Shown here one piece after another: positions 4,503-37,973 of a stretch of DNA of 64,000 nucleotides. Below the pieces are notes generated by a model. The model was not told the origin of the DNA. It saw nothing but the letters and a program-made list of their open reading frames with translations, and did not search any database. The stretch comes from Ostreococcus lucimarinus. Its lineage: Eukaryota. A program made the position numbers and the translations under genes. The first letter of the stretch is position 1. Every line of letters begins with the position of its first letter. Location of the stretch: the NCBI GenBank assembly GCA_000092065.1, contig CP000601.1, one strand, 5' to 3'.

Positions 4503-5159
4503 CTAAAACGGCGCCGTCACGCCTCTCGCGGACAACTCCGCGTACACCTCGTAAGCGATGGCTAACATCGCTAATCGTCCATGAATCATCTCCTTACGCG
4601 CGGTGAAGATTCCGACATCCTTCTTACTTTTGGGATCGCCGCCGTACGTCTTCCCCAAAAAGCTCGGCGCCGCCGACGCCGCGGCGACCACCGCCAACAC
4701 CGCCGCGAACAACAACACGTGATCGTGCGCTTGCGTCACGAACCCCGTTCCCGTGGTGTACTGCCGCCACAGTCCGCACACGATCCCAATCTGCGCCGCT
4801 CGTCCGTTTACCGTCTCGGGCGCCCAACCCGAGAACGCCAGCGCGTCGAACGCGCTTCTTCCCTCCACGCGTCCTCCTCGCGCGTCTCGCGTCGCCTTCG
4901 CGCGCTCAAGAGCCTCACTCACGGGCACCATGACGTTATCGTTCGCTTTCGGCGCCTCCACCGCGCTCGATCGCACCGCTCGACGTCGCTGTTCGTTCGG
5001 TGGCGGAGTCGACGTCGACGAACTCGACGCCGCCGCCGCGTCTTTTCGACGGAACGGACACGCCGACCCGAGCGCGCACGAGCGCACGGCGGTGTACATT
5101 TTCGCGCGCGCGACTTTTCGGGGCGAGCGTCGCGGAGTGCGGCGGTGGCGACGCGCCAC
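4503..5159 (-). CDS. Two-helix light-harvesting-like protein (LHC motif, SEP/LIL/ELIP-related), probably plastid-targeted
   Basis: Two chlorophyll-binding LHC motifs: ETVNGRAAQIGIVCGLW and EMIHGRLAMLAIAYEVY (the E..NGR..M pattern). The N-terminus is Ser/Ala-rich and transit-peptide-like. An alternative ATG at 5099 gives a product starting MYTAV. Confidence 0.6.
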   Translation of the reverse strand: MARRHRRTPRRSPRKVARAKMYTAVRSCALGSACPFRRKDAAAASSSSTSTPPPNEQRRRAVRSSAVEAPKANDNVMVPVSEALERAKATRDARGGRVEGRSAFDALAFSGWAPETVNGRAAQIGIVCGLWRQYTTGTGFVTQAHDHVLLFAAVLAVVAAASAAPSFLGKTYGGDPKSKKDVGIFTARKEMIHGRLAMLAIAYEVYAELSARGVTAPF

Positions 5160-5299
5160 TGAAAAGTGTGCGGCGCGTGGACAGACTGTGCGTCGCGTCG
5201 CGTCGAGGGTCGCAAAATTTTAATTCGTTTTACATGATTAGCGTCGACGCCGACGCGGGCCGACGTCGCGATGATGAACATTGATGCGCGCGATCGCGA

Positions 5300-7204
5300 T
5301 CACGGCCCCGAGGCGCAGAGCTTGGCGCCGAAAGCCACGCACGAAAAGAATTTCGCCTTGACGAGGACGAAGAGCCAGTGCAGCGAACCGTTTGGCTGAA
5401 TGCTCGTCGTGAAACTCACGAGGACGCTGACTATGGTGAACAGAAGACCGTACGTCGCGATGCGTTCGTTGATGCGCTGTAAGCGCACTTCCACGGATGC
5501 TTGGACGAGGGAAGTGGTGCGCTCGAGGGCGTCGCTGAGAATTTTCGCTTGCTCGGCGACGGCGTAGATGGTGCTCACCGCCGGGTCGATGCGCTTCTTG
5601 ACGAAGAGCGGTAAGAAGCGAATCTCGTACCCGAGACGCGTGAAACTGGCTTCTGCTAGGCGAAGCTCGATGATCTCGAGATACGACGCCGTCGTGAGGG
5701 CGACGAGCTTCGTTCGCGTCACGAGCTGCGTGATGGCTTGCTCGAGTTCGGTGATTTGCGTCACAAACTCTTGCTGGTCTTTGTGCCCGCGCGCAGTGGC
5801 TTTCGATCGGCGCAGCTCGCGCGATAGCGTTTCGTACCGCTCGTTCAAGCCGGCTAGAAGTGGGAACTTGGACTTGGCCATGGGTAAACGTTGCAGAATC
5901 ATGAGTCGATATTGCTCGAGGGCGAAGAAGCGTTGCAACTGTCGCCCCGCGCGAATAAACGTGCTGTCTCCCGGGGGCACGACCACGAGCGTGGTCATCG
6001 CGCCCGAATCATCGAGCTCATAGTTGGCAAACATGCGACTCCCATCGCCTATGCCACATCCCACGAGCGAGCCGGCGTCCCATTCCAATACCGCGTCTTC
6101 CTCGTCCATCGACGCGTTGACCTTGTCCTCGTACAGCGTCGATCCGAGCGCTTTGCGAATGGCGTTCAATTCTTTCAGCGTCGGCTCTTCGCTTCGCGAT
6201 GGCTGCGAAAGCTGTCTAAATACCGCGTGATTCACCAAGAAAACCTTGCCCGGAATGTCAGCCAACCAATCGTGCGGTAACAACCACTGCCACGGCGTGA
6301 TGCGCGTTCCGAGCGACGCCTTCATGTTCCCCGGACCGCTCAGCGTGATCGTCTCGAATTCCGTGTGCCTTTGCATGCGTAAGTTGAACCCAGAGCCAAG
6401 ATTCAGCGTGACGTCGGACCAACCGCGTTCGATACCGTCGAGCGTTTCTTCCACGAGCTCCTTCGGCATGGTGTAGTGCGCCAAGAGTTGCTCGATGCAC
6501 TCGCGATACGCCAACCCTTCCTCGCGCGTGAACTTCCCGGTTTCATCGTACTCGCGATACCACGCTATGTGTAGAACTTCACCCTTCAACGGCACAAACG
6601 GTCGCGACCGCGTCTCCGCGCTCAACGCTCGCCTTTGTCCGAGCCCGCGGTCCGCCGTCGACTTCTTCGCCTCTCGTCCCTCCGCGTCCTCGTCCACCGA
6701 CTCGCTCGTCGACGCCTCGCTCGCGCCGGCGTCACCGTTCGCACCATCATCCACCACCACCGCGGACGCGTCCTCGCCCTCCATCGCTTCGACGTCCTCG
6801 TCCCGAACGCTCGTCGTTCGCGCGTCGCTCGCGCGCGTCCTCGTCCCGCGCGTCGTCGCGCTCGACCCGTCCCGCGCGTTCCAAGCGTCGAGCCATCGCG
6901 ATGCGCGCGTCGCGCGCGCCGCGCGCATCGCGTCTTCAACGCGCGCGCGCGCCGCGTCGTCGCCGATCGTCGCGCGTCGCGTCGCGCGCGCGTCGAAACC
7001 GCTTTCCGAACGCCCCCTCTCGAGCGCGCGTCGCGCCTTCGTCCGTCGCGCGCGTCGCGCGTCGCGCGCGACGACGCGCGCCGGCGCGCGCGCGGGCGCG
7101 ACGCGCATGTTCGCGGCGACGCGCGTCGAGCGCGCGATCGCGCGTCGCGAATTGACGCGCGGCGCGGCGTCGCCGCGACTCTTATCCGTCCCGGTCGCAC
7201 TCAC
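5300..7204 (-). CDS. Uncharacterised conserved-looking protein with a long Arg/Ala-rich low-complexity N-terminus and a single C-terminal TM helix
   Basis: 634-aa ORF. The C-terminal roughly 400 aa are non-repetitive (HIAWYREYDETGKF...LLFTIVSVLVSF) and read as real protein. The N-terminal roughly 230 aa may partly be 5'UTR read-through, so the true start is uncertain. Confidence 0.45.
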   Translation of the reverse strand: MSATGTDKSRGDAAPRVNSRRAIARSTRVAANMRVAPARAPARVVARDARRARRTKARRALERGRSESGFDARATRRATIGDDAARARVEDAMRAARATRASRWLDAWNARDGSSATTRGTRTRASDARTTSVRDEDVEAMEGEDASAVVVDDGANGDAGASEASTSESVDEDAEGREAKKSTADRGLGQRRALSAETRSRPFVPLKGEVLHIAWYREYDETGKFTREEGLAYRECIEQLLAHYTMPKELVEETLDGIERGWSDVTLNLGSGFNLRMQRHTEFETITLSGPGNMKASLGTRITPWQWLLPHDWLADIPGKVFLVNHAVFRQLSQPSRSEEPTLKELNAIRKALGSTLYEDKVNASMDEEDAVLEWDAGSLVGCGIGDGSRMFANYELDDSGAMTTLVVVPPGDSTFIRAGRQLQRFFALEQYRLMILQRLPMAKSKFPLLAGLNERYETLSRELRRSKATARGHKDQQEFVTQITELEQAITQLVTRTKLVALTTASYLEIIELRLAEASFTRLGYEIRFLPLFVKKRIDPAVSTIYAVAEQAKILSDALERTTSLVQASVEVRLQRINERIATYGLLFTIVSVLVSFTTSIQPNGSLHWLFVLVKAKFFSCVAFGAKLCASGP

Positions 7205-7254
7205 GCGCGCGCGACGGCGACGCGCGCGCGCGAGCGACGCGCGCGGGCGGCGAC

Positions 7255-9315
7255 ATGCGGTGGGTGCGCGCGGAGCGCGACGCGCGCGCGCGCGCGTCGA
7301 ACGCGGCGCGCGGGGAGGCGCAATCGCGCGATGAAGACGCGCGCGCGTCGACGTCGGCGGATGCCGAAGCGGCGCGGGCGGCGTCGCTGCGCCCGGCGAC
7401 GCGGGCGAACGTTCGACGGGAGATCATGACGATGAACGACGGCACCGAACGCGAGATCACGGTGGACGCGCGGTTTAAGTGCGCGAAGTGCGCGCGCGGG
7501 AGCTCGTGCTTCGCCGTGCACCGAGCGACGAGCGCGGTGAGCGGGATGCGAGCGAAACGGCGGTATAACGAACGGAAAAAGGCGAAAAAGACGAAGAGTA
7601 AATACGCGTCGGACGTCGAGGGCGGCGGGCGAGGGTCGAGGGCGCGCGCGGACGCGGATCCGGTCGGGGCGACGCTGGCGCTGATACGAGACGGACACAG
7701 GCCGACGGCGAAGACGTTTACGGCGGTGATTAGCACGCTAGGCGCGATGGGACGCGCGAAAGAGGCTTTGGACGATGTGTTGCCGATGATCGAGGAGTAT
7801 GGCGATGACGTCGATGTGGCGGTGTGGAACGCCGTGGCGCACGCGTTTTGCGCCGGCGGAGACCCGGCGGGGGCGGAGAAAATCGTGGATAGAATGGTCG
7901 GCGAAGACGGCGTGGGCGTGAACGGGGCGACGCATCCGGAGATCATATACACGTACGCGAAGCGTGGAGAGGCAAATAGAGTGTATAGGTTGATCAGACG
8001 AATGTCGAGCGAGCATGGAATAATCCCAGACGAACGCGCGTATAACGCGTTTTTGCGAGGCTTGTGCGAGCGGGACGATCTCGAGGACGCCGAGGAAGTG
8101 CTCAGACGATGGAACAACGAAAAGTTCGACTTGGAGCGACAGAGTGACCGCGGTGGGCGAGTGTCGAAGCCGAGCGCGGCGTCATACGGGTTACTCATCG
8201 ACGCGTGGACGCGTCGCGGAAACATGCTCGCCGCGCGCAAGCTTTTACAACAGATGCAATGGGAGCGCATCGCGCCCTCACTGCCGCTGTTTAACATGCT
8301 CATAGACGGATACCTCAAGCAAGAAAACATGCGCGCTGCGGAAGGGCTGTTTCGCGAGCTCGAATCGAGTGGAACGTGGGATATGGAGTCGTTGGGGATC
8401 AAACCAGACAACGTGACGTACACGTTGTTTTTAGATTATTGGGCGAATCAAGGCCAAGTCGACGCGTGCGAGCGAATCTTCAATCGCATGCATCGCAAGG
8501 AAGTCGCGCCAGACGTCACAGCTTACGGGACGTTGGTAAAGGCGTACGCGCGCGCGCGCGATTCCGACGGCGCTGAGGCGGTTTTGGATCGACTCGCCGA
8601 GGCAAAGGTGGCTCCGTCGGTGGCTATTTACAGCGCCGTCGTCGCCGCACATTGTACGATTGGTAACATGTCGCGCGCGCGCGACGTACTCGAGCGCATG
8701 TTCGACGCGGGCTTGCGCCCGAACGAGCGTACGTTCGCTCATTTCGCGTGGGGATACGGCCAACTGGAAGACATCAACGGTATTGCCGAGGTGGCGAAGT
8801 TAATGCTCGCGAGCGGGCTCAAACTCAAGGGTGCGAACCGCACCGCCATCGTGCGCGCGTGCGAAGAGTGCGGAATGAGCATGAGCGCCGTACAAGCGCT
8901 GCTGGATCGAATCAATCCCGAAATGACGCAGCGCAAGGGCGTGTGGAAACGAGACGGCGGCGAGCCGAAACCCAAATCCAATCGAGCCGCCGCCGCCGCC
9001 GCCGACGAGGACCTCGAACCGTCAACGCTCGAACCGACGAAGACGAAAGAAATCTACGGAGGTCCGGAGTCCACCGCGCGTCGGGTGTCGCTTTCCCAGC
9101 GTGTAGAGTCCCTCGACGAAGACGACGACGACGGCGATACGGGCGCCGTGGACGCGCCGCCGGCGAGCTCGGATTGGCCTCGCAAAGTCTCCACTCGCGC
9201 CGTCGCCATCGCGCACCGCGCGTCCTCGCGCGCGCGCCCTATCCGTCGCACATTTACACGAACGAACGCGCGCGCGTTCGCGATCACGCGAGCCCTCGGC
9301 GCTGCTTCGATGTAA
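7255..9315 (+). CDS. Pentatricopeptide-repeat (PPR) protein with an acidic, low-complexity C-terminal tail
   Basis: Repeated 35-aa helical hairpins of PPR type (TFTAVISTLGAMGRAKEALDDV, AYNAFLRGLCERDDLEDAEEVL, SYGLLIDAWTRRGNMLAARKLLQQM, TYTLFLDYWANQGQVDACERIF, AYGTLVKAYARARDSDGAEAVL). The real start is probably the ATG at 7426 (MTMNDG). Confidence 0.75.
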   Translation: MRWVRAERDARARASNAARGEAQSRDEDARASTSADAEAARAASLRPATRANVRREIMTMNDGTEREITVDARFKCAKCARGSSCFAVHRATSAVSGMRAKRRYNERKKAKKTKSKYASDVEGGGRGSRARADADPVGATLALIRDGHRPTAKTFTAVISTLGAMGRAKEALDDVLPMIEEYGDDVDVAVWNAVAHAFCAGGDPAGAEKIVDRMVGEDGVGVNGATHPEIIYTYAKRGEANRVYRLIRRMSSEHGIIPDERAYNAFLRGLCERDDLEDAEEVLRRWNNEKFDLERQSDRGGRVSKPSAASYGLLIDAWTRRGNMLAARKLLQQMQWERIAPSLPLFNMLIDGYLKQENMRAAEGLFRELESSGTWDMESLGIKPDNVTYTLFLDYWANQGQVDACERIFNRMHRKEVAPDVTAYGTLVKAYARARDSDGAEAVLDRLAEAKVAPSVAIYSAVVAAHCTIGNMSRARDVLERMFDAGLRPNERTFAHFAWGYGQLEDINGIAEVAKLMLASGLKLKGANRTAIVRACEECGMSMSAVQALLDRINPEMTQRKGVWKRDGGEPKPKSNRAAAAAADEDLEPSTLEPTKTKEIYGGPESTARRVSLSQRVESLDEDDDDGDTGAVDAPPASSDWPRKVSTRAVAIAHRASSRARPIRRTFTRTNARAFAITRALGAASM

Positions 9316-29884: not shown

Positions 29885-31012
29885 TCACCACAGCAAGTGC
29901 GCGCGACACGCCAGCGTCGTCTGGCGATGTCCGCGATCATCCGTGGAGATTACGACGCCCGGAATCAACGTCGAGCCGGGTTCTTCGCCGTCGGAACCGA
30001 TGCGCAAGAACGCCTCGGCTTGCACGCCGCCGCGATTGGCGGGCTTGCCGGCGACGATCCCCCATCCCGCGTTCTTCACCAGTCCCGCGCCTTTGGTCGG
30101 AGGCACGCTCGCGGCGATCCCCCACTCGGTTAAATCCTCGCGCGCGTTCGGTTGCCTGACGGCGACTTGCCCCCAGGCGTTACCGACGACGGCTCTCGTC
30201 GTCTTCGGCAGCGTCTTCGCCACCGTCAGCGCGACGCCCAGGATGGCTTCGCCGCTCTGACACCTCGACGCGTTCACCGCGAAGTTCACGTGGCGCGTGG
30301 ACGTCGAGCTCTTCGCGCTCGCCTGCGCGAGCACCTTGCCCATGTTGTCCTCGGGTTGTCGGTTCCCGGTGAACACCCCCAAGTGCGCCGCGAACCTATC
30401 CTTGTACTCCACCGACACCGCCCCCATGCTGTCCTGTTCGCATCTTTCGATCAAGTTCGACCCGAGCGCGCCGAATCCCGTGAGTCTGTGCGACCGTCTC
30501 GCGCCGCCGACCCCTCCCGGGCACGCGTCCACGCCCTCCGCGCCGAACGGCGTCGCCCGCGCCCGCACCCTCACCCCGTTCGCCGTCTCCCGCACCGTCC
30601 GCGCGAACGTCACCTTCTCCAGCGTCACCACTCGCGCCTCGTACTCGTCCTCGTTCGCCAGATAATCCGCCCGCGCGCTCGCGAACCTCACCGTCGCCTC
30701 GCCCTCCGCGCCCGCGTCGCCGAACGTCGCCCGCGTCTCGCGCGTCGCCCGCATCGTCCGCCGCGCGTCGCTCTTCATCGCTTCGGACGCGTCGTTCGAG
30801 CCTCTCGCGACGTTGATCTCGATCGCCGTCTCCGTCGCGACGCGCGCGTTCGCGCGCGCGCCGCGCAGGTCGTCGAGCGCCGACTCGGCGATTCGTAACC
30901 GTCGCGAGACGTCGTGCGTCTTCTCCGCGGCGTCGCGCGCGATTCGTCGCAGCCGCTCGACGTCGTCCGCGACGCTCGACGACGACGCGCTCGCGGGCGT
31001 CGACGCGGTCAT
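29885..31012 (-). CDS. Hypothetical protein: coiled-coil N-half plus a Gly-rich C-terminal domain
   Basis: The ORF 29885..31954 N-terminus is Arg-rich junk. The first plausible ATG is at 31010-31012 (MTASTPASASSSSVADDVERL). The C-terminal roughly 250 aa are compositionally normal (GFGALGSNLIERCEQDSMGAVSVEYKDRFAAHLGVF...). I recognise no homology. Confidence 0.35.
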   Translation of the reverse strand: MTASTPASASSSSVADDVERLRRIARDAAEKTHDVSRRLRIAESALDDLRGARANARVATETAIEINVARGSNDASEAMKSDARRTMRATRETRATFGDAGAEGEATVRFASARADYLANEDEYEARVVTLEKVTFARTVRETANGVRVRARATPFGAEGVDACPGGVGGARRSHRLTGFGALGSNLIERCEQDSMGAVSVEYKDRFAAHLGVFTGNRQPEDNMGKVLAQASAKSSTSTRHVNFAVNASRCQSGEAILGVALTVAKTLPKTTRAVVGNAWGQVAVRQPNAREDLTEWGIAASVPPTKGAGLVKNAGWGIVAGKPANRGGVQAEAFLRIGSDGEEPGSTLIPGVVISTDDRGHRQTTLACRAHLLW

Positions 31013-31062
31013 GGCGCGCGATTCGAACGCGCGTCGCGGAGTGTTCGAACGCGCGCGAATGA

Positions 31063-31863
31063 ATGCATGCGAGAATGCGCGCGCGCGCGCGTCATTCGTC
31101 GACTCGACGACGAATCGCGGGCGACATGCGCGCGACGACGGCGCGCGCGCGCGCGCGCGTCGACCGCGGCGCGCCGGCGCGTCGCTCGCGGCGTCGCGGC
31201 GTCGTCGCGCGCGCCGACCGGACGACGACGACGACATCGACGACGCGACGCGACGCGCTGCGCGCGCTCGCGCTCGCGCCGGCGCTCGCGCCGGCGCTCG
31301 CGGCGCGCGCGAACCCGCTCGAGGCGGTCGCGGACGCGCGCAAGGCGGCGAACGCGCGGTTTTTGTTGGGCCCGATCGCGCTCGCGCGCGGGCGACTCGC
31401 GGCGCTGCGGCGCGAACTCGACGACGACGCCGCGACGCTCGACGACGCCGCGCTTCGCGAGCGATTGACGAGCGCGACGCTGGATTGCACGAATCCGCGA
31501 GATTCGCTGGAGATGTACTCGAACGCGCGAGAGGTGTGCACGCTGGCCATTCTGGCTCGATCCGCGACTTCGGGACCGGCGGCGAGACGCGACGCCGCGT
31601 CTCGCGAATCCGTCGACGTCTTTCGAACCCTCGACGCGTGTCGCGCCTCGTTCGAGGCGCTCGAGCGCGTCCTCGCGTCTTCGGCCGCGGGCGAGCGCGA
31701 GCGCGACGCCGCGTTCGACGCGTGCGACGCGGCGCTGCTCGAGTTCGCGCTTCGCGTGCTCGCGTGTTTCGGCTTCGACGACGCGCGCGCGCGCGACGCG
31801 ATGGCGGCCGTGCCGGGCGCGTTCGCCGATCCCTCGGCGTCGCGTCGATCGAACGCGTCTTAA
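31063..31863 (+). CDS. Hypothetical protein with a transit-peptide-like N-terminus, divergent from the previous gene
   Basis: The presequence is Arg/Ala/Thr-rich. The body is non-repetitive (PLEAVADARKAANARFLLGPIALARGRLAALRRELDD...EMYSNAREVCTLAILARSATSG...DACRASFEALERVL). The antisense frame here is junk. The real start may be the ATG at about 31123. Confidence 0.35.
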   Translation: MHARMRARARHSSTRRRIAGDMRATTARARARVDRGAPARRSRRRGVVARADRTTTTTSTTRRDALRALALAPALAPALAARANPLEAVADARKAANARFLLGPIALARGRLAALRRELDDDAATLDDAALRERLTSATLDCTNPRDSLEMYSNAREVCTLAILARSATSGPAARRDAASRESVDVFRTLDACRASFEALERVLASSAAGERERDAAFDACDAALLEFALRVLACFGFDDARARDAMAAVPGAFADPSASRRSNAS

Positions 31864-32055
31864 AAGCTCGCCGTGCGTCGATTCTCGCGCGCGTTCGAAA
31901 CCGCGCGCTCTTTGTCGTTCGAATCAGAATCTTTCTTTTCGCCGTCATCGTCATTCGTCGCGCGAACGCCCCGACGTCACTTTTCGACGCGTCTCGACGC
32001 GTCTCGACGCGCGCGCGCGCCTCTCGCGCGCCCGCGAGCGGCGTCGCGCGCGCGC

Positions 32056-35000
32056 ATGGTCGAACTCACGATCGTCCCGTCGTGGGACGGTAAGGGCGTC
32101 ACCTGGCGCCCGATATTCGACGACGACGAGGAGGCTTTCGCGGCGTACACGCACGCGTGCGAGTACGCGAAGAGCGGACGCGGGAAGTGCGGGAAGTGCG
32201 GGGAAAAGGTGCGGCGAATCGACGAATCGACGCGAAGAGAAGAGAAAAAAGACTGACGACGAGGGGTTCGGATCGGCGACGAAGATCGCGAAGGACGCGG
32301 TGCGAATCGGGGAACCGCTCAAGTATCGCGGCGGCGATTACGGATGGATATCGAAGTGGATGCATCCGGAGTGTTATCGCGCGGAGGGAGTCACGAGGGA
32401 GGAGCTGGAGACGCGCGTGCACGGGTTGGACGCGCTGAAGGATGGGGATCGGGAGGTGTTGCTGGCGACGGTGCTGTCGCCGGATCGGCCGGAGATCGAG
32501 AACACGGCGTTGGACGTGACGAGCGAGGAGTTTTTGCGTCGGCCGGCGGTGGAACCGATGGAGGCGCCGCGGGCGTTGACGCGGCCGTTGTTGGGGTTTC
32601 AGCGCGAGGGGTTGCGGTGGATGTGCGATAACGAGAGCGGCGATGCGAAGGGGGGGATATTGGCGGATGAGATGGGGATGGGGAAGACGATACAGTGCAT
32701 ATCGATGTTGCTGGCGAGGAAGGAGGCGTGGATGCGAGACCGCGCCGAGGTGGGGGAGATGGTGACGGACGACGACAGACCGCCGCCGACGCTCGTGGTG
32801 GTGCCGACGTCGGCGCTCGTTCAGTGGGAAGAAGAGATCAAATCGTGCGTCGAGGAAGGGTCGCTGCGCGTGTTTGTGTATTACGCTGATCGCGCAAACG
32901 TCGTGGAAGGAGACTTTAAAGGATACGACGTCGTGTTGACGACGTATCCCGTCGTCGAAGCCGAGTGGCGGAAAATCATCAACCGACACTTGACGGCGTG
33001 TCAGTGGTGTGGGAAAAAGTACTTACCTCGCTCCATGGTGACGCACTTGAAGTACTTCTGTGGACCAGACGCCGTGCGCACGGAAAAACTCGCGCGGCGC
33101 GAGGTGACGCGCGACGTGGCGAACGAAAAAGCCATGCGCACGCTGAAAATCAAGCCGGGCAGCGCCAAGGACGTGAAGAAGGGGATTCCCACGATGGCGA
33201 ACGTATACAAGGAACTCATGGCGATGGCCGGACGGGAGACGCTGAGCATGTATGATGGCGCGCACAAGGCGCGCGCACGCGCGGCTTCAGGTCTCGCCCC
33301 GGGCGGCGACGTCGTCGTCGTCAAGGAGGAAGTTGAAGACGGCGTCGCCGAGCCGAGCGAAGTTCTGAAAGCTTTGATTTCGCAGCTTCCAGTGCCGACG
33401 ATTGTAGTTGAGAATATCAAAGAGGAGTCGATTGAGGAGAAAGAAAAAGAGGTCGAGTCAGTGAACGAGCCCGCCTTGGCTGACGCGTCAACGGCGGCGA
33501 TAGCGAGTACGGTGAAGAAGGCGCAGAAGCGCAAGTCGAAGGCTTCGGGTAAAGCGACTTCGACTTCGAGCGCAAAGAAAAAGAAGAAGAGTCTGCGCGA
33601 AGCTAGCGACGGCGAGGCTGAAAGTGATTACAAACCGGACAGTGATAGCGAAGATGATGAGATCATATTAGTCGACGATAGCGAGAGCGAAGATAGAAAG
33701 CCAAAGAAGAAACAGAAGAAAAAGAAAACGCCGGCGAAAACCGAGGAAGCGGACGACGTGAAGGCGTCCAACATCGACGACATTCCGCAAACCTCGCAAG
33801 GTGGTTCGCAAGGTGGGAGCCAGTTTGAAGACGAAGACGACGTAGATTTGTCGGATTCCCTTCTTCATCGCACGCAGTGGCACCGAATCGTTCTCGACGA
33901 AGCGCACAAGATCAAGGCGCGCACGAGCAACACCGCCAAGTGTATCTACGCTTTGAAATCCACGTATAAGTGGTGTTTGACAGGTACACCGTTGCAGAAT
34001 CGAATCGGCGATCTTTACAGCTTGGTGAGATTTTTGCGTATGGATCCGTACGCGTTTTACTTTTGTTCGACGAAGGGTTGCGAGTGCAAAACGCTCACCT
34101 GGAACTTCGGTCCTCAGGCGCGATTTTGTACCAACTGCGGATGCGGCGCTCCTAGGCATTATTCGCATTTCAATCGCACCGTGCTAAACCCGATCAACCG
34201 TTATGGCTACATCGGTGACGGCAAGAAAGCGATGCTGACTCTTAGAAATGACATTTTGTTGCCGATGCAACTTCGCCGGACCAAGGCGGAACGCGCCGAG
34301 GACGTGCGACTGCCGGACTTGAAGATTATCATTCAAGAAAACACATTCAATGAGGTTGAACAAGACTTTTACGAGTCTCTGTACATGCTGACGCGCTCGA
34401 AGTTCGACGCGTTCGTGAAGAAAGGGAGCGTTTTGCACAACTACGCACACGTCTTCGAGCTCCTCGCACGACTGCGACAAGCGTGCGATCATCCGTACTT
34501 GGTGATTCATTCGAAGAGTGCGAACGTGAAAAAAGACGCCCCTGACGCGCCGAAAGTTGAATCCCCGGCAGACACCGACGTTCCGAAGCATTATTGTGGC
34601 ATGTGTCAGGACGAAATTGAGGAAGAAGACGCGGCTCTGGCGAATTGCAAACACATTTTCCATCGTGAGTGCATCATGCAATACGCGTCTTGTGCGCCTG
34701 CGGATGGCAAAAAAGTGACTTGTCCCGTCTGTCGCACGGCGTTGACGATTGACTTCTCTCCAGAAAGTCTCGAAAACGTCAAGAGTGCCATTAGTCGTAA
34801 TTTCAAGGATGCGCTACCAGACAAGTCAATTCTCAACAAGCTCGATCTCACGCAGTACACGTCGAGCACAAAGGTTGAGACGCTCGTTAACGCTCTGCGA
34901 GACATGCGTAATCAAGAAAATGGGCACTTAAACAAAGCCATCGTGTTTTCGCAGTACACAGCCATGATAGAAATCGTCGAATGGCGTTTGAAAAAGGCCA

Positions 35001-35392
35001 AGTTTACCATCGCCAAGCTTCTCGGTTCCATGCCGGTCACGCAACGCGCGGCGAATTTGCAAGCTTTCCGAGAAGATCCAAACGTCAGCGTGATCTTGAT
35101 GAGTCTCAAATCTGGCGGTGAAGGACTCAACTTGCAAGCGGCGAATTACGTATACGTTCTTGAGCCATGGTGGAACCCAGCGGTGGAAATGCAAGCCGTG
35201 ATGCGCGCACATCGCATCGGGCAGCTTCGACCGGTGACCGCTGTTCGATTTTCGACCAAAGGCACGATTGAAGAACGCATGATGGAGCTTCAAGAAAAGA
35301 AGCAGCTTGTGTTCGAAGGGTGTATGGACGGCAATCAAGCCGCGCTTTCTCAACTGACTGCCGAAGACTTGCAATTTTTGTTCAAGCGATGA
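32056..35392 (+). CDS. RAD16/RAD5-family SNF2 ATPase with a RING finger and an N-terminal PARP-type zinc finger; two exons, about 32056..32208 and 32294..35392
   Basis: SNF2 N-domain: LLGFQREGLRWM...ILADEMGMGKTIQ...VVPTSALVQWEEEI...LDEAHKIK...LTGTPLQNRIGDLYSL. Inserted C3HC4 RING: CGMCQDEIEEEDAALANCKHIFHRECI...CPVCR. Helicase-C: ANYVYVLEPWWNPAVEMQAVMRAHRIGQ. Upstream, in another frame (ORF 31873..32256), CEYAKSGRGKCGKCGEK is the first half of a PARP-type zinc finger, and RIGEPLKYRGGDYGWISKWMHPECY at the start of ORF 32300 is the second half. They join across an intron of about 85 nt (GTGCGG...CTGAC...GCGAAG) at approximately 32209..32293. My hand count is off by one from the ORF track here, so treat these as +/-1. 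Confidence 0.75.
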
Positions 35393-35477
35393 CGATGATG
35401 TATGGTATAATGACAAATTTGACCTATGTAGCTAAAACGCTGTAACGCTGTGATGTGAGCACTTTCTGTCATGGCTC

Positions 35478-37973
35478 TTAAAAATCCTTGAAAATCTCGT
35501 TCGCACGATTCATAGACGCATCCGTCGGTCCTCTCGCCGAATCCATTTCAGTTGCGAGCAACGATTCCCGTTCGATCTCGATAAGACGTTCGCGCTGAAT
35601 TTCTAAAAACTGCCGCGAAAGCGTCAGCGGCTTGGGCGTGTACTCGCCACTCTCTAGCAGCGCCCAGTCAAACTTGGCGAACCAAGGGTGTCTCTTAATC
35701 TGACTGACCCCGCCTTGCATGTTTCCGAGCCTTTTCGCCGAGTTTCGCTGCAAGAGCTGAGAAATAAAATTGCACGCCTCGTCGGTGGCGTACGTGGGGT
35801 ATTGCACCTCGTACGACATGTCCACGATTCGCCGCATCACTTTCAATGGATCGTCTTTTTGGGACGGATCCTTTGATATCGTGAACGGCTGTTGTCCCGT
35901 TATTGTGACGTACGTCAAAACACCCAGCGCCCACCAATCGACGGCGTAGCCGTATCCCGTGGACAGCACAATTTCTGGCGCCACGTACCCAGGGGTGCCG
36001 CAAAACGTAAACGCGCGTTCGCCGACGTCAAGTTTCTTCGCGTAGCCAAAATCTCCGAGCTTACATTTGCCGTTGAGCGCAAGCAATACATTCTCTGGCT
36101 TCAAGTCGCGATAGATGATTTGGTTGCCGTGCAGATACTCGAACGCGAGAATAACCATGGCGGTGTAGTATCGCGCCGTGTCTTCGCTGATGCCAATCTG
36201 CGTGGGCACGTGGCGAATCTCACCATCGATTTGTGTCGGAATTAACTTCACTTGCACCGCGCTCGCAAGCATGTCCATCAAGTCACACCCATCCATGATG
36301 TCGAAAAGCATGTACAGATGATTCCTGTCTTGGAAACTGGCGTGCTGACACATCAACGAAAAGTGGCTGATTTCGCTCGTGACTTCCTTTTCGCAGAAAA
36401 TGTGCGACGGACTCTCCATCACGGCACGCTTACGCACGCGCTTGAGCGCGAAGGCGCGCGGTGACGACACATTCATACCTTCTTGAATAACGCGATACAC
36501 GTGCCCACCAGTGCCTCCACCGAGCATTTCCTTCTCCACTAAATCGATCGACCCCAACTCCCGATTGACGTCCGTGGCGAACGACCTCGGGTTTACTGAG
36601 CCGTACATGCTAATGTTCACCTTCTTTCCTCCCACGCGCGCGCTACCTAACAGGCGAATTCGGGCGGAGCGCCACGACTTTTCACCCTTGAGCTGCCGCA
36701 TGCGATTACGAATGACTTCTCGAGACTTTTCTCGAAGTAAATCTTCGCGCACGGATGACAGCTTCTCGAGGAACACGTCTCGATTGACGACGTAACACAC
36801 CAGAGGAGTTTCCACGCATCGCACGGTGTACTCTCGCGGTTCATCACCGCGAATGATCTCGGAAGCACCAAAAAAGTCGTGTCGAAACAAGTGATTCACC
36901 GTGCGCGGTTCACCCGTGTCCGGGTCGAGCTTGGAAACTTGCGCTCGCCCCGAATTGACGAGGTAAAATTTACCGTCGCACGCTTCGCCTTCGGTAATAA
37001 CGTCCGTGTACGGGTCGAACGAGACCGTCTCCAAGGCATCCGCGAACGACTTCCGCGTGTCGATCGGTAAAGCGCTGAGCACGGGAACTTGTTCGAGGAA
37101 TAAATTCTTCGCGAGCGTCGTCGCCTCGACGCTGTGCTTGACCTCCCTCTTGAAGACTTGTTGCGTGCACACCCAAACCTGCGACCGCGTCTTCGCCCGC
37201 ACCGTCGCCGAGCGCGGCACGCTATAAAGTAAAGCTAACTCGCCGATGATATCGCCTTTCGTGCGCGTGAGGACGCTGATATCGGCGCCGAGCCGATTTT
37301 GCAGCACGTCGAATTCGCCTCCGGCGATGAGATACAACGCGTCGCCCGGTTCGTCCTCCTCCATCAAAATCGTCCCCTCCGGCACGTTGATGAAGAACAT
37401 TTCGCTCGCCACGCGTCGCCTGACGTTCGCATCGAGCTCAGAAAACGTAAACGTCTGCGACAGCGCCTCGCACAGCGGTTCCAATTCGCTCTTCGTCGCT
37501 CTCCGTCGCTTCGCCAGCATCTTCGCGTTCAGCTTCACGAAATACGTCAGCTCCGCCGATCCCGCGTCGCCGACGAACTCATCGTCTCCTCCGTTCGCGT
37601 TCGCCGTCGCCTCTTCCCCCGACGCGAGCGATCCCTGACTCGCGCGCAGCGCGTAGTCGACGCTCTGCCGCCTCGCCTTCGCCTCGCCCGCCGACGCCGA
37701 CGCCGACGTCGACGCCGACGCCGTCGACGTCGCGCGCGCGCGCGTCCCGTCCGACGTCCGACCCGCGTCGGCGTCGCTCGCGCTCGTCGACCCATCGCTC
37801 GCGTCGCGTCGCGCGTCCTCGTCGTCCGACGCCGCGTCCCGCGCGCCGAAGCAGCATCCGACGCGCGCGCGCGCGCGCGCCGTCGGTCGCGCGCGTCCGC
37901 GCGCGCGCGCGTCCGACGACGAGTCCGTCGCGCGGCGCGATCGCATGCGCGCGGTGTCGACCTCGTCCGCCAT
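35478..37973 (-). CDS. cGMP-dependent protein kinase (PKG): tandem cyclic-nucleotide-binding domains plus an AGC kinase domain
   Basis: Two cNMP-binding domains (GDALYLIAGGEFDV...GELALLYSVPRSATVRA; GKFYLVNSGRAQVS...FGASEIIRGDEPREYTVRCV). The kinase domain has GTGGHVYRV..ALKRV, HGNQIIYRDLKPENVLL, DFGYAK, GTPGYVAPE, and an AGC C-tail. The N-terminal roughly 150 aa are Ser/Ala/Asp-rich low complexity. Confidence 0.8.
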   Translation of the reverse strand: MADEVDTARMRSRRATDSSSDARARGRARPTARARARVGCCFGARDAASDDEDARRDASDGSTSASDADAGRTSDGTRARATSTASASTSASASAGEAKARRQSVDYALRASQGSLASGEEATANANGGDDEFVGDAGSAELTYFVKLNAKMLAKRRRATKSELEPLCEALSQTFTFSELDANVRRRVASEMFFINVPEGTILMEEDEPGDALYLIAGGEFDVLQNRLGADISVLTRTKGDIIGELALLYSVPRSATVRAKTRSQVWVCTQQVFKREVKHSVEATTLAKNLFLEQVPVLSALPIDTRKSFADALETVSFDPYTDVITEGEACDGKFYLVNSGRAQVSKLDPDTGEPRTVNHLFRHDFFGASEIIRGDEPREYTVRCVETPLVCYVVNRDVFLEKLSSVREDLLREKSREVIRNRMRQLKGEKSWRSARIRLLGSARVGGKKVNISMYGSVNPRSFATDVNRELGSIDLVEKEMLGGGTGGHVYRVIQEGMNVSSPRAFALKRVRKRAVMESPSHIFCEKEVTSEISHFSLMCQHASFQDRNHLYMLFDIMDGCDLMDMLASAVQVKLIPTQIDGEIRHVPTQIGISEDTARYYTAMVILAFEYLHGNQIIYRDLKPENVLLALNGKCKLGDFGYAKKLDVGERAFTFCGTPGYVAPEIVLSTGYGYAVDWWALGVLTYVTITGQQPFTISKDPSQKDDPLKVMRRIVDMSYEVQYPTYATDEACNFISQLLQRNSAKRLGNMQGGVSQIKRHPWFAKFDWALLESGEYTPKPLTLSRQFLEIQRERLIEIERESLLATEMDSARGPTDASMNRANEIFKDF

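What the first reader, a model, noticed from the sequence alone, without database searches (positions are those of the whole stretch)
32056..35392. PARP-type DNA-nick-sensor zinc finger fused to a RAD16/RAD5-like SNF2-RING ATPase, with the finger split by an intron
- The first exon encodes CEYAKSGRGKCGKCGEK and the second starts (D)AVRIGEPLKYRGGDYGWISKWMHPECY.
- Joined, they reconstitute a complete PARP-type zinc finger (CxxC...H..C), the module PARP1 and DNA ligase III use to recognise strand breaks.
- Here that module sits in front of an SNF2 ATPase that carries an embedded C3HC4 RING, which is the Rad16/Rad5/HLTF architecture.
- I do not know of a described RAD5/16-family member that carries a PARP-type finger.
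- The fusion would link nick recognition directly to a ubiquitin-ligase/translocase repair enzyme.
- Because the finger spans an intron, gene models that ignore the 5' exon would miss it.
Basis: partly seen in the sequence, partly recalled or inferred. Interest (0 to 1): 0.65.

Follow-up and report, generated by a model that had tools for sequence, protein, structure and literature searches.

The report
RAD16 repair gene with PARP-type finger
This is an Ostreococcus-type green alga's version of the DNA-repair gene RAD16, whose motor-plus-ubiquitin-ligase protein starts with a PARP-type DNA-break-sensing zinc finger split by a 76-base intron; the fusion is real but already common in public protein annotation across protists, although its function has not been studied.

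Summary
One gene runs from the ATG at 32056 to the stop at 35390-35392. It has one GT..AG intron, at 32209-32284, which is 76 nt and not about 85 nt.

The spliced 1086-aa protein has four parts:
- zf-PARP, residues 36-110, at 56 bits against a gathering cut-off of 39.3;
- an SNF2 ATPase split by a roughly 270-aa insert;
- a RING whose pattern is RING-H2;
- Helicase_C.

Related Ostreococcus-like lineages encode the same protein as one uninterrupted ORF, and their DNA differs from the window by exactly this 76-nt gap. Within the window's own species the intron varies in length while the exons stay identical.

The finger keeps its zinc ligands and six PARP-1 F2 DNA-contact residues. Its dN/dS is 0.13. 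A model of an 84%-identical orthologue superposes on DNA-bound PARP-1 fingers.

The protein is a RAD16/Rhp16 orthologue, not Rad5/HLTF, because it has no HIRAN domain.

The novelty claim fails. 93 of the 120 best full-length homologues carry zf-PARP. They come from chlorophytes, kinetoplastids, apicomplexans, dinoflagellates, oomycetes and other stramenopiles. The architecture is tabulated for trypanosome proteins in a published supplement.

The sampled fungal fragments and the land-plant RAD16 inspected lack the finger. Its role is inferred: docking the Rad16 motor and ligase at nicks or gaps.

The parts
32056..32208 (+). Exon 1, codons 1-51. It holds the conserved N-terminal stretch MVELTIVPSWDGKGVTWRPIFDDD and the first half of the zf-PARP finger: K39, S40, R42 and zinc ligands C45 (32188) and C48 (32197).
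   Evidence: The ATG aligns with the start Met of related ORFs P0166, P0167 and P0169. Translation is and coordinates are.
32209..32284 (+). Spliceosomal intron, 76 nt, phase 0. It opens GTGCGG, has a CTGAC branch-like motif at 32251-32255, and ends AG at 32283-32284. It contains an in-frame TGA (32254-32256) and a purine-rich tract of variable length.
   Evidence: There is an exact 76-nt gap against intron-less L001. This splice gives the best zf-PARP score. Strains of the same species differ in intron length and reading frame while the exons stay identical. The intron is not a repeated element within the window.
32285..35392 (+). Exon 2, codons 52-1086 plus the stop at 35390-35392.
   Evidence: A single open frame. 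It is collinear with the orthologues.
32161..32461 (+). zf-PARP domain, residues 36-110, with the intron inside these coordinates. Zinc ligands are C45, C48, H78 (32363) and C81 (32372). The equivalents of the PARP-1 F2 DNA-contact residues are K39, S40, R42, K54, R58 and W76.
   Evidence: Pfam 56.1 bits. PDB sequence hits to PARP-1 and Lig3 fingers. Alignment. Contact residues taken from PMC3094755. The AF2 model of the 84%-identical P0001 matches PARP-1 Zn1/Zn2 bound to DNA at TMt 0.71-0.78. dN/dS is 0.13.
32597..33067 (+). First part of SNF2 ATPase lobe 1, from residue 156. It includes motif I DEMGMGKT (32666-32689) and a C-x2-C-x11-H-x4-C zinc knuckle, CQWCGKKYLPRSMVTHLKYFC (32999-33061).
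   Evidence: Pfam SNF2-rel_dom and motif coordinates. The knuckle is conserved in land-plant RAD16 and in protists but absent from the fungal rad16 fragments.
33068..33868 (+). Insert of about 270 aa inside lobe 1, residues 313-579. It has a conserved head (DAVRTEKLARRE...MRTLKIK...YKELM) followed by a poorly conserved K/E/D/S-rich tract.
   Evidence: Identity to related lineages is 42-58% here, against 81-99% in the catalytic parts. In other lineages this region carries HMG-box or SAP hits.
33854..34501 (+). Second part of the SNF2 domain. It includes motif II LDEAH (33893-33907), motif III LTGTPLQN (33977-34000) and the Cys-rich motif YFCSTKGCECK...HYSHFN (34058-34174).
   Evidence: Pfam SNF2-rel_dom 1.7e-57, stretch 519-734 of the ORF. 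Coordinates. The Cys-rich motif is shared with fungal proteins named rad16.
34595..34732 (+). RING finger between the two ATPase lobes, with a RING-H2 pattern, residues 822-867.
   Evidence: zf-RING_2 2.8e-7 and zf-C3HC4 2e-5. Pattern.
34874..35221 (+). Helicase_C, ATPase lobe 2. Motif VI reads QAVMRAHRIGQ (35192-35224).
   Evidence: Pfam Helicase_C 9.8e-21. Motif.

Best explanation
The locus is one two-exon gene. It encodes the RAD16/Rhp16 orthologue of an Ostreococcus-type prasinophyte.

The protein is an SNF2-family double-stranded-DNA translocase with a RING ubiquitin-ligase domain between its two ATPase lobes. Ahead of these, on a flexible linker of about 40 residues, sits a single PARP-type zinc finger.

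Shown here:
- The gene structure.
- The domain architecture.
- That finger and motor are one polypeptide.
- That the finger is under purifying selection and keeps the zinc ligands and DNA-contact residues of PARP-1 F2.
- That the same architecture is the usual state of RAD16 orthologues in several major eukaryotic groups.

Inferred:
- The finger binds DNA discontinuities (nicks, gaps, ends or sharply kinked DNA), as single PARP-type fingers do in DNA ligase III and PARP-1 F2.
- This docks or retains the Rad16 motor and E3 ligase at damaged or incised DNA during global-genome nucleotide excision repair.
- In yeast, Rad7-Rad16 binds UV-damaged DNA, generates torsion needed for excision and ubiquitinates Rad4. 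This is established knowledge of the yeast complex and was not tested here.

My rough likelihoods:

| Claim | Likelihood |
|---|---|
| Gene structure and architecture | about 0.97 |
| RAD16 orthology | about 0.85 |
| The finger is a structure-specific DNA binder | about 0.6 |
| Its main use is in excision repair | about 0.5 |
For: - Splice and domains.
- One polypeptide: the uninterrupted orthologous ORFs P0165-P0171 and P0001.
- The intron is non-coding: its length and frame vary among strains while the exons are identical.
- Finger identity: Pfam 56.1 bits; PARP-1 and Lig3 hits in the PDB; fold match to DNA-bound PARP-1 Zn1/Zn2 for the orthologue model.
- Finger function retained: K39/S40/R42/K54/R58/W76 match the F2 contact residues K119/S120/R122/K134/R138/W157. 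dN/dS is 0.13, against 0.115 for the ATPase lobe and 0.53 for the linker.
- A single finger can be enough for strand-break recognition, as stated for DNA ligase III in PMC3094755.
- RAD16 assignment: the same protein cluster is named 'DNA repair protein RAD16'. Named homologues are RAD16/rhp16 at E around 1e-180 to 1e-210, whereas Rad5, the best solved structure, reaches 1e-61. There is no HIRAN. The Cys-rich motif is shared with fungal rad16.
- Wide conservation of the fusion, with a shared signature (GWIS.WQH..C) in chlorophytes and kinetoplastids.
Against: - No transcript, DNA-binding or genetic data exist for this protein or for any finger-bearing orthologue that I could find.
- The RAD16 names are automated annotations, and I built no phylogeny with Rad5, Ris1 or SHPRH outgroups.
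- The sampled fungal rad16 fragments and the one land-plant RAD16 I inspected have no finger, and yeast Rad16, the studied model, is not known to carry one (my knowledge), so the finger is not essential to the core Rad16 mechanism.
- PARP-type fingers also bind double-strand ends and other structures, so nick specificity is not assured.
- Motif VI has Met where plant and oomycete RAD16 have Asp (QAVMRAHRIGQ). The effect on ATPase activity is unknown.
Confidence: 0.6

Rival explanations
1. The finger is a general DNA or chromatin anchor rather than a break sensor. It keeps the RAD16 complex on undamaged DNA or nucleosomes so that the motor can scan. This would be comparable to the anchoring that the sequence-specific factor Abf1 gives the yeast Rad7-Rad16 complex.
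For: - Other lineages add further generic DNA-binding modules to the same protein: HMG box, SAP, PHD and a C2HC knuckle.
- The sampled fungal rad16 fragments have no finger, and yeast relies on Abf1 (established knowledge).
Against: - The residues conserved are specifically those that contact DNA in the PARP-1 F2 complex with a single-strand break.
- Known members of the fold prefer discontinuities (PMC3094755).
Confidence: 0.25
2. The finger is mainly a regulatory or protein-contact module. For example, it could hold the ATPase or RING inactive until DNA is engaged, or it could bind a partner such as a Rad7-like protein.
For: - In PARP-1 the fingers take part in inter-domain contacts that switch on catalysis (established knowledge).
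- About 30 conserved residues precede the finger and have no assigned function.
Against: - The AF2 model shows a confident finger (pLDDT 86-96) joined by a low-confidence linker (58-62).
- The pTM is only 0.54, so the arrangement of the finger relative to lobe 1 is not confidently predicted. The model covers only the first 347 residues.
Confidence: 0.1
3. The protein is a Rad5/HLTF-type post-replication repair enzyme, not RAD16, with the finger playing the 3'-end-sensing role of HIRAN.
For: - The best solved-structure match is K. lactis Rad5 (1.2e-61), although no Rad16 structure exists for comparison.
- The overall layout is similar: an N-terminal DNA-binding module, then SNF2 with an embedded RING.
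Against: - No HIRAN hit.
- Homologues named RAD16/rhp16 score far higher, at E around 1e-180 or better.
- The same cluster is named RAD16.
- The Cys-rich motif is shared with fungal rad16, and the C2HC insert with plant RAD16.
Confidence: 0.04
4. Exon 1 is a separate small gene or an untranslated upstream ORF, and the real protein starts inside exon 2.
For: - Automatic gene calls for this species start at MHPECY or at other internal codons.
- No transcript data were available.
Against: - Eight related sequences (P0001 and P0165-P0171) encode the same N-terminus fused in frame, with no interruption.
- Exon 1 alone carries half a zinc site.
- dN/dS across the finger is 0.13.
- The gap against L001 is exactly the GT..AG segment.
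Confidence: 0.01

Closest known systems
RAD16/Rhp16 orthologues with an N-terminal zf-PARP in other protists and algae. Examples: the O. tauri 'P-loop containing nucleoside triphosphate hydrolase protein', Micromonas commoda 'SNF2 super family', T. cruzi Q4E4N3 / T. brucei Q387H5, Plasmodium 'DNA repair protein rhp16', and oomycete 'Nucleotide excision repair protein RAD16'.
   Same: The domain order is the same: zf-PARP, split SNF2 with a C2HC knuckle and a long insert, RING, Helicase_C. The finger signature is shared, for example GWIS.W.H..C.
   Different: In this species the finger is split by a 76-nt intron that the other Ostreococcus-like lineages lack. Micromonas has a different intron 10 nt upstream. 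Oomycetes add a PHD, and pelagophytes and others add HMG or SAP.
Saccharomyces cerevisiae Rad16 / S. pombe Rhp16, the global-genome excision-repair translocase and E3 that works with Rad7.
   Same: SNF2 ATPase with a RING between the lobes. The Cys-rich motif after motif III is seen in fungal rad16-named fragments. The repair role is assumed from orthology.
   Different: The fungal rad16 fragments examined lack the PARP-type finger, the C2HC knuckle and the long lobe-1 insert. The yeast RING is C3HC4 (my knowledge), whereas here the pattern is RING-H2.
PARP-1 zinc fingers F1/F2 and the DNA ligase III zinc finger.
   Same: Same fold and zinc ligands, C-x2-C-x29-H-x2-C. The six F2 DNA-contact residues are conserved.
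   Different: There is one finger rather than a pair. It is attached to a translocase and ubiquitin ligase, not to an ADP-ribosyl transferase or a ligase. DNA binding has not been tested.
Rad5 / HLTF.
   Same: A sister SNF2-RING subfamily whose N-terminal module (HIRAN) recognises a DNA end. The design principle is the same: a DNA-structure sensor ahead of a RING-bearing motor.
   Different: The sensor fold is different. No HIRAN is present here, and sequence similarity is lower than to RAD16-named proteins.
Arabidopsis ZDP, a DNA 3'-phosphatase with three PARP-like fingers.
   Same: A repair enzyme in the green lineage that uses PARP-type fingers as a proposed nick sensor (PMC10573277).
   Different: The catalytic domain is different, and ZDP has three fingers rather than one.

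Membership tests
zf-PARP (PF00645) | Profile score above Pfam's gathering threshold | tested here: met
   56.1 bits (E 6.6e-15) against a cut-off of 39.3 with the 76-nt splice; profile positions 1-83 of 87 are covered.
zf-PARP (PF00645) | Zinc ligands C-x2-C-x(28-30)-H-x2-C | tested here: met
   C45, C48, H78 and C81, with 29 residues between the pairs.
zf-PARP (PF00645) | Fold: three-stranded sheet plus two helices, as in PARP-1 F1/F2 and Lig3 | tested here: met
   This was tested on the 84%-identical orthologue P0001, because the spliced window protein could not be submitted. Finger pLDDT is 86-96. The top Foldseek PDB hits are 3odc and 3od8, at TMt 0.71-0.78.
zf-PARP (PF00645) | Conserved DNA-contact residues of PARP-1 F2 (K119, S120, R122, K134, R138, W157) | tested here: met
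   They correspond to K39, S40, R42, K54, R58 and W76.
zf-PARP (PF00645) | Preferential binding to nicked, gapped or broken DNA | not testable with these tools
   This needs gel-shift or fluorescence binding assays with recombinant protein.
RAD16/Rhp16 subfamily of SNF2-RING proteins | SNF2 ATPase with motifs I-VI in two lobes | tested here: met
   SNF2-rel_dom 1.7e-57 and Helicase_C 9.8e-21. GMGKT, DEAH, LTGTPLQN and HRIGQ are present. Motif VI has Met at the position that is Asp in plant and oomycete RAD16.
RAD16/Rhp16 subfamily of SNF2-RING proteins | RING domain inserted between the ATPase lobes | tested here: met
   Residues 822-867, zf-RING_2 2.8e-7. The pattern is RING-H2, not the C3HC4 pattern of yeast Rad16.
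RAD16/Rhp16 subfamily of SNF2-RING proteins | Closest relatives are RAD16/Rhp16 proteins, and subfamily-specific motifs are shared | tested here: met
   The same 90% cluster is named 'DNA repair protein RAD16'. Homologues named RAD16/rhp16 reach E 1e-180 to 1e-210. The YFC..C.C...C..C motif is shared with fungal rad16 fragments. Caveat: these names are automated annotation.
RAD16/Rhp16 subfamily of SNF2-RING proteins | Phylogenetic placement inside the Rad16 clade against Rad5, Ris1 and SHPRH | not tested
RAD16/Rhp16 subfamily of SNF2-RING proteins | Works with a Rad7-like partner in global-genome excision repair | not testable with these tools
   This needs genetics or biochemistry.
Rad5/HLTF subfamily | N-terminal HIRAN domain | tested here: not met
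   There is no HIRAN hit at E<=1 in the N-terminal 186 aa or in the 1030-aa ORF.
Spliceosomal intron | GT..AG boundaries, a branch-like motif, and precise absence in orthologues | tested here: met
   GTGCGG...CTGAC...AG. The gap against L001 is exactly 76 nt. Length varies among strains.
Spliceosomal intron | Spliced transcript observed | not testable with these tools
   No transcript of this species turned up among the homologues or cluster members read.

The most novel reading that the evidence does not exclude
The PARP-type finger is the ancestral DNA-discontinuity sensor of eukaryotic RAD16. It was lost in fungi and land plants, which include the only organisms where Rad16 has been studied. 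In most eukaryotic lineages the global-genome repair translocase and ubiquitin ligase would then be recruited or switched on directly by nicks or gaps. That would be a ubiquitin-based strand-break response running parallel to, or in some lineages in place of, PARP signalling.
Probability: 0.2. Interest if true: 0.55.

Novelty: new member of a known kind. Interest (0 to 1): 0.3.

Why it matters
For annotation, the common public gene calls for this abundant marine alga start inside the finger and so lose a whole DNA-binding domain. The correct model is 32056-32208 joined to 32285-35392.

For biology, the point is modest but real. RAD16 has been characterised in fungi, and the fungal fragments and the one plant orthologue examined here lack the finger. 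Orthologues in chlorophytes, kinetoplastids, apicomplexans, dinoflagellates and stramenopiles carry a well-conserved PARP-type finger that nobody appears to have studied.

A binding assay and a finger-dead allele in a tractable species such as O. tauri or T. brucei would show whether strand-break sensing is part of how this repair motor finds its substrate. The fusion itself is not a discovery, because it is already visible in public domain annotation.

Tried and rejected
It removes IAK, including the equivalent of F2 K134. It drops the zf-PARP score to 40.1 bits and gives 26-residue spacing, where all Mamiellales orthologues have 29.
- Other in-frame GT..AG pairs were enumerated. The 55-nt option scores 48.4 bits and adds residues that no orthologue has.
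- I tested whether the intron is a repeated, introner-like element. Only short low-complexity matches occur elsewhere in the window.
- The first homologue search used a 324-aa query and returned only proteins up to about 566 aa. It missed full-length annotated orthologues, so I repeated it with the full protein.
- Five literature searches for a described PARP-finger/RAD16 fusion found no dedicated study. A sixth was rejected for its syntax. Only domain catalogues turned up.
- Petrucco & Percudani 2008 (FEBS J 275:883) surveys PARP-like finger families and may already list this family. It could not be read.
- The antisense ORFs over the locus (32099-32989 and 29885-31954, minus strand) have no Pfam hits. 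However, L001 has a called minus-strand gene whose DNA matches window 29885-30739. The 5' part of the longer ORF may therefore be a real upstream gene; the rest looks like a by-product of high G+C.
Full report
**What is in the sequence.** An ATG lies at 32056. It opens a frame that reads MVELTIVPSWDGKGVTWRPIFDDDEEAFAAYTHACEYAKSGRGKCGKCGEK and meets a GT at 32209. A 1030-codon ORF in a different frame starts upstream of 32300 and ends with the stop at 35390-35392. I enumerated every GT..AG pair that joins the two frames without a stop. That left three serious candidates with the donor at 32209:
- acceptor at 32263, a 55-nt intron;
- acceptor at 32284, a 76-nt intron;

**Which splice is right.**
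- Pfam zf-PARP scores 56.1 bits for the 76-nt splice, 48.4 for the 55-nt splice and 40.1 for the 85-nt splice. The gathering cut-off is 39.3.
- P0001 is 84% identical and lies on a 577-kb contig. It is encoded by an uninterrupted ORF (L001 5001-6044).
- Aligning that DNA to the window gives a single gap of exactly 76 nt, flanked by ...GAAAAG and ATCGC.... A whole-locus blastn breaks at 32208/32282.
- Seven further Ostreococcus-like lineages, 73-82% identical, read CG.C.EKIAKD continuously.
- The intron is therefore 32209-32284. It opens GTGCGG, has CTGAC at 32251-32255, and uses the first AG at a workable distance downstream. Exon 2 begins at 32285 with IAKD.

**The intron is non-coding and the fusion is one protein.** Cluster members that are essentially identical in the exons come from many environmental contigs of the same species. 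They differ in the length and frame of this segment:
- P0296 reads through a 93-nt in-frame version.
- P0163, P0290 and P0294 enter from another frame.
- P0297 and P0302 terminate inside the segment.

This is the behaviour of a purine-rich intron, not of coding sequence. In the other direction, P0165-P0171 are single ORFs of 1087-1143 aa that run from the conserved Met through the finger to the C-terminal LQFLFKR. Finger and ATPase are therefore parts of one polypeptide. The commonest gene call for the window's species (P0283, 109 contigs, 1010 aa, named 'DNA repair protein RAD16') starts at MHPECY, inside the finger.

**The finger.**
- Residues 36-110 match zf-PARP.
- phmmer against PDB sequences finds PARP-1 F1 and F2 (E 1.6e-16 for the two-finger chains) and the DNA ligase III finger (E 1.7e-6).
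- The zinc ligands are C45, C48, H78 and C81, with 29 residues between the pairs.
- PMC3094755 names Lys119, Ser120, Arg122, Lys134, Arg138 and Trp157 of F2 as conserved residues involved in binding a single-strand break. All six are present here as K39, S40, R42, K54, R58 and W76.
- The AlphaFold2 model of P0001 has pLDDT 86-96 across the finger and 58-62 in the following linker, with pTM 0.54.
- Its best Foldseek hits in the PDB are PARP-1 Zn2 and Zn1 bound to DNA, at TMt 0.71-0.78.
- Between the window and L001, dN/dS is 0.13 for the finger, 0.115 for the adjacent ATPase lobe and 0.53 for the linker. The finger is being maintained by selection.

**The rest of the protein.**

| Feature | Residues | Detail |
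|---|---|---|
| SNF2-rel_dom, two blocks (1.7e-57) | from 156 | Motif I DEMGMGKT (179-186), DEAH (589-592), LTGTPLQN (616-623) |
| Zinc knuckle | 290-310 | CQWCGKKYLPRSMVTHLKYFC |
| Insert between the blocks | 313-579 | About 270 aa, mostly K/E/D/S-rich |
| Cys-rich motif | 643-681 | YFCSTKGCECK...HYSHFN |
| RING | 822-867 | C-x2-C-x13-C-x-H-x2-H-x2-C-x16-C-x2-C; best Pfam hit zf-RING_2 |
| Helicase_C (9.8e-21) | 915-1030 | Motif VI QAVMRAHRIGQ (1021-1031) |

The RING is RING-H2 by pattern, not C3HC4. No HIRAN domain is detected.

**Which family.**
- The best solved structure is K. lactis Rad5 (1.2e-61). No Rad16 structure exists for comparison.
- Full-length homologues named RAD16 or rhp16 score E 1e-180 to 1e-210. 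They include oomycetes, Plasmodium, Cryptosporidium, Perkinsus and the land plant Nyssa.
- The protein's own 90% cluster is labelled RAD16 by JGI.
- The Cys-rich motif after motif III is shared with fungal fragments named rad16. The C2HC knuckle is shared with land-plant RAD16.
- I therefore file it as a RAD16/Rhp16 orthologue. Two caveats apply: the names are automated, and I built no outgroup phylogeny.

**Is the fusion new?** No.
- In the full-length search, 93 of the 120 best hits carry PF00645 together with PF00176, a RING family and PF00271.
- At least 14 of the 27 hits without PF00645 are N-terminally truncated ORF calls that start at or after the finger, as in P0164, P0175 and P0176.
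- Named examples of the full architecture fall into four groups:
  - Chlorophytes: Ostreococcus tauri, Micromonas commoda, Chloropicon primus.
  - Kinetoplastids: Leishmania, Leptomonas, Novymonas, Phytomonas, Trypanosoma rangeli, Perkinsela.
  - Alveolates: Plasmodium species, Cryptosporidium felis, Eimeria, Perkinsus, Durusdinium.
  - Stramenopiles: Aureococcus, Nannochloropsis, Aphanomyces, Phytophthora, Peronospora, Plasmopara.
- Chlorophyte and kinetoplastid fingers share a signature (GWIS.WQH..C) that PARP-1 lacks. This argues for one old fusion rather than repeated gains.
- Land-plant RAD16 (P0276) and the fungal rad16 fragments lack the finger.
- In print, the supplement of PMC5976635 lists T. 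cruzi Q4E4N3 with Pfam:zf-PARP (33-109), SNF2_N, RING and Helicase_C, and lists T. brucei orthologues with the same domain set. A Toxoplasma SNF2 survey includes zf-PARP and RING in its domain legend.
- I found no functional study of the finger in any RAD16 orthologue. A 2008 survey of PARP-like finger families could not be read.

**How it most likely works.**
- Shown here: one protein; an intact, selected PARP-type finger on a flexible linker ahead of a complete SNF2 motor with an embedded RING.
- From established knowledge of yeast Rad7-Rad16: the complex binds UV-damaged DNA in an ATP-dependent way, its translocase generates torsion needed for excision, and its RING is part of the ligase that ubiquitinates Rad4.
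- From PMC3094755: a single PARP-like finger, as in DNA ligase III, is thought sufficient to recognise single-strand breaks.
- Inference: the finger docks or retains the RAD16 motor and ligase at nicks, gaps or sharply distorted DNA. These could be incised repair intermediates or breaks near lesions.
- Main rival: a non-specific DNA or chromatin anchor. This is supported by the way other lineages add HMG, SAP or PHD modules to the same protein.
- Second rival: a regulatory, inter-domain role. This is possible but not suggested by the model.

**Surroundings.**
- The upstream neighbour on the same strand ends at 31863, 192 nt before the ATG. It has no Pfam hit.
- The downstream neighbour (35478-37973, minus strand) converges on the gene. 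It is a cyclic-nucleotide-binding protein kinase.
- The minus-strand ORFs overlapping the locus have no family hits.
- Gene order matches L001, except that L001 has an extra 1.5 kb with an E2-like gene after RAD16.

**Verdict.** The domain reading is correct. The gene is RAD16-like rather than Rad5-like. The claimed novelty does not hold, because this is the normal architecture of RAD16 outside fungi and land plants and is already in public annotation. What remains open, and mildly interesting, is what the finger does.

Noticed in passing
window 32209-32284; proteins P0163, P0290, P0292, P0294, P0296, P0297, P0302: The intron varies in length among environmental strains of the same species. 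It is 76 nt here, a 93-nt in-frame version occurs in P0296, and other lengths shift the frame. The variation appears to lie in the purine-rich tract GAAGAGAAGAGAAAAAAG, while the flanking exons are identical.
   Followed up: partly
L002 1129-1230 (Micromonas commoda-like contig): Micromonas orthologues also have an intron in the finger, but at a different site. It lies in phase 2 inside the Lys codon of CRK^C, is 102 nt long and opens GTGCGC. That is 10 nt upstream of the window's intron position, so there are two independent or slid introns within the same few codons. The other Ostreococcus-like lineages have none.
   Followed up: partly
L001 8282-9780 versus window 35393-35477: The related species has an extra 1.5 kb between RAD16 and the convergent kinase gene. 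It carries a 188-aa UQ_con (E2-like) gene directly downstream of the RING ligase gene. tblastn finds no copy anywhere in the 64-kb window.
   Followed up: partly
window 32050-36400: G+C falls along the gene, from 0.62-0.66 with strong G-over-C skew (+0.25 to +0.40) over 32050-32950 to about 0.50 in the 3' half. The zone where RAD16 and the kinase gene converge (34000-36000) has the lowest G+C in the window, 0.51 against 0.57-0.71 elsewhere.
   Followed up: no
protein P0172 (NCBI Ostreococcus tauri): The public O. tauri model looks mis-built. It begins inside the upstream neighbour's reading frame and skips much of ATPase lobe 1 including motif I (...YGLDAF|NGVDVVLTTYP...). The environmental ORF P0165 of the same lineage is complete.
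   Followed up: partly
window 32999-33061 (residues 290-310): A C-x2-C-x11-H-x4-C zinc knuckle (CQWCGKKYLPRSMVTHLKYFCGP) sits inside ATPase lobe 1. It is conserved from land-plant RAD16 to kinetoplastids and apicomplexans, but absent from the fungal rad16 fragments. It is predicted with pLDDT around 90 in the orthologue model. Pfam reports nothing for it in the window protein, although some homologues carry PF13913.
   Followed up: partly
window 35192-35224 (motif VI): Motif VI reads QAVMRAHRIGQ. The position that is Asp in plant and oomycete RAD16 (QA.DR.HR.GQ) is Met in the Mamiellales and Gln in Chloropicon, kinetoplastids and Plasmodium.
   Followed up: no
window 32056-32127 (residues 1-24): The stretch before the finger (LTVVPSWDGKGVTWRPIFDDD) is conserved in Ostreococcus-like lineages. 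It is recognisable as a W.P motif in Micromonas, Chloropicon, Leishmania and others. It is predicted as a beta-hairpin, but at low confidence (pLDDT 46-49). Its function is unknown.
   Followed up: no
homologues P0015, P0238, P0245 (HMG box); P0209, P0216, P0218 and others (SAP); P0261, P0265, P0267, P0274, P0278 and P0280 (PHD): RAD16 orthologues in different protist lineages have picked up further nucleic-acid or chromatin-binding modules in addition to the PARP-type finger.
   Followed up: no
L001 6010-6090: In L001 the gene is called as two ORFs (5001-6044 and 6086-8281). The cause is a frameshift at ...ATCAAGGAGGAAGCGCC.... P0002, a closely related sequence, reads through (IKEGSAKDVKK), so this is probably an assembly indel in a long-read, polished contig rather than a second intron.
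   Followed up: partly
protein P0214 ('Batrachochytrium salamandrivorans BASA81_002712'): This is the only fungus-labelled protein with the finger. It also has two RING regions and long inserts, and it resembles protist RAD16 more than the other fungal fragments do. It may be a contaminant or a mis-assigned record.
   Followed up: no
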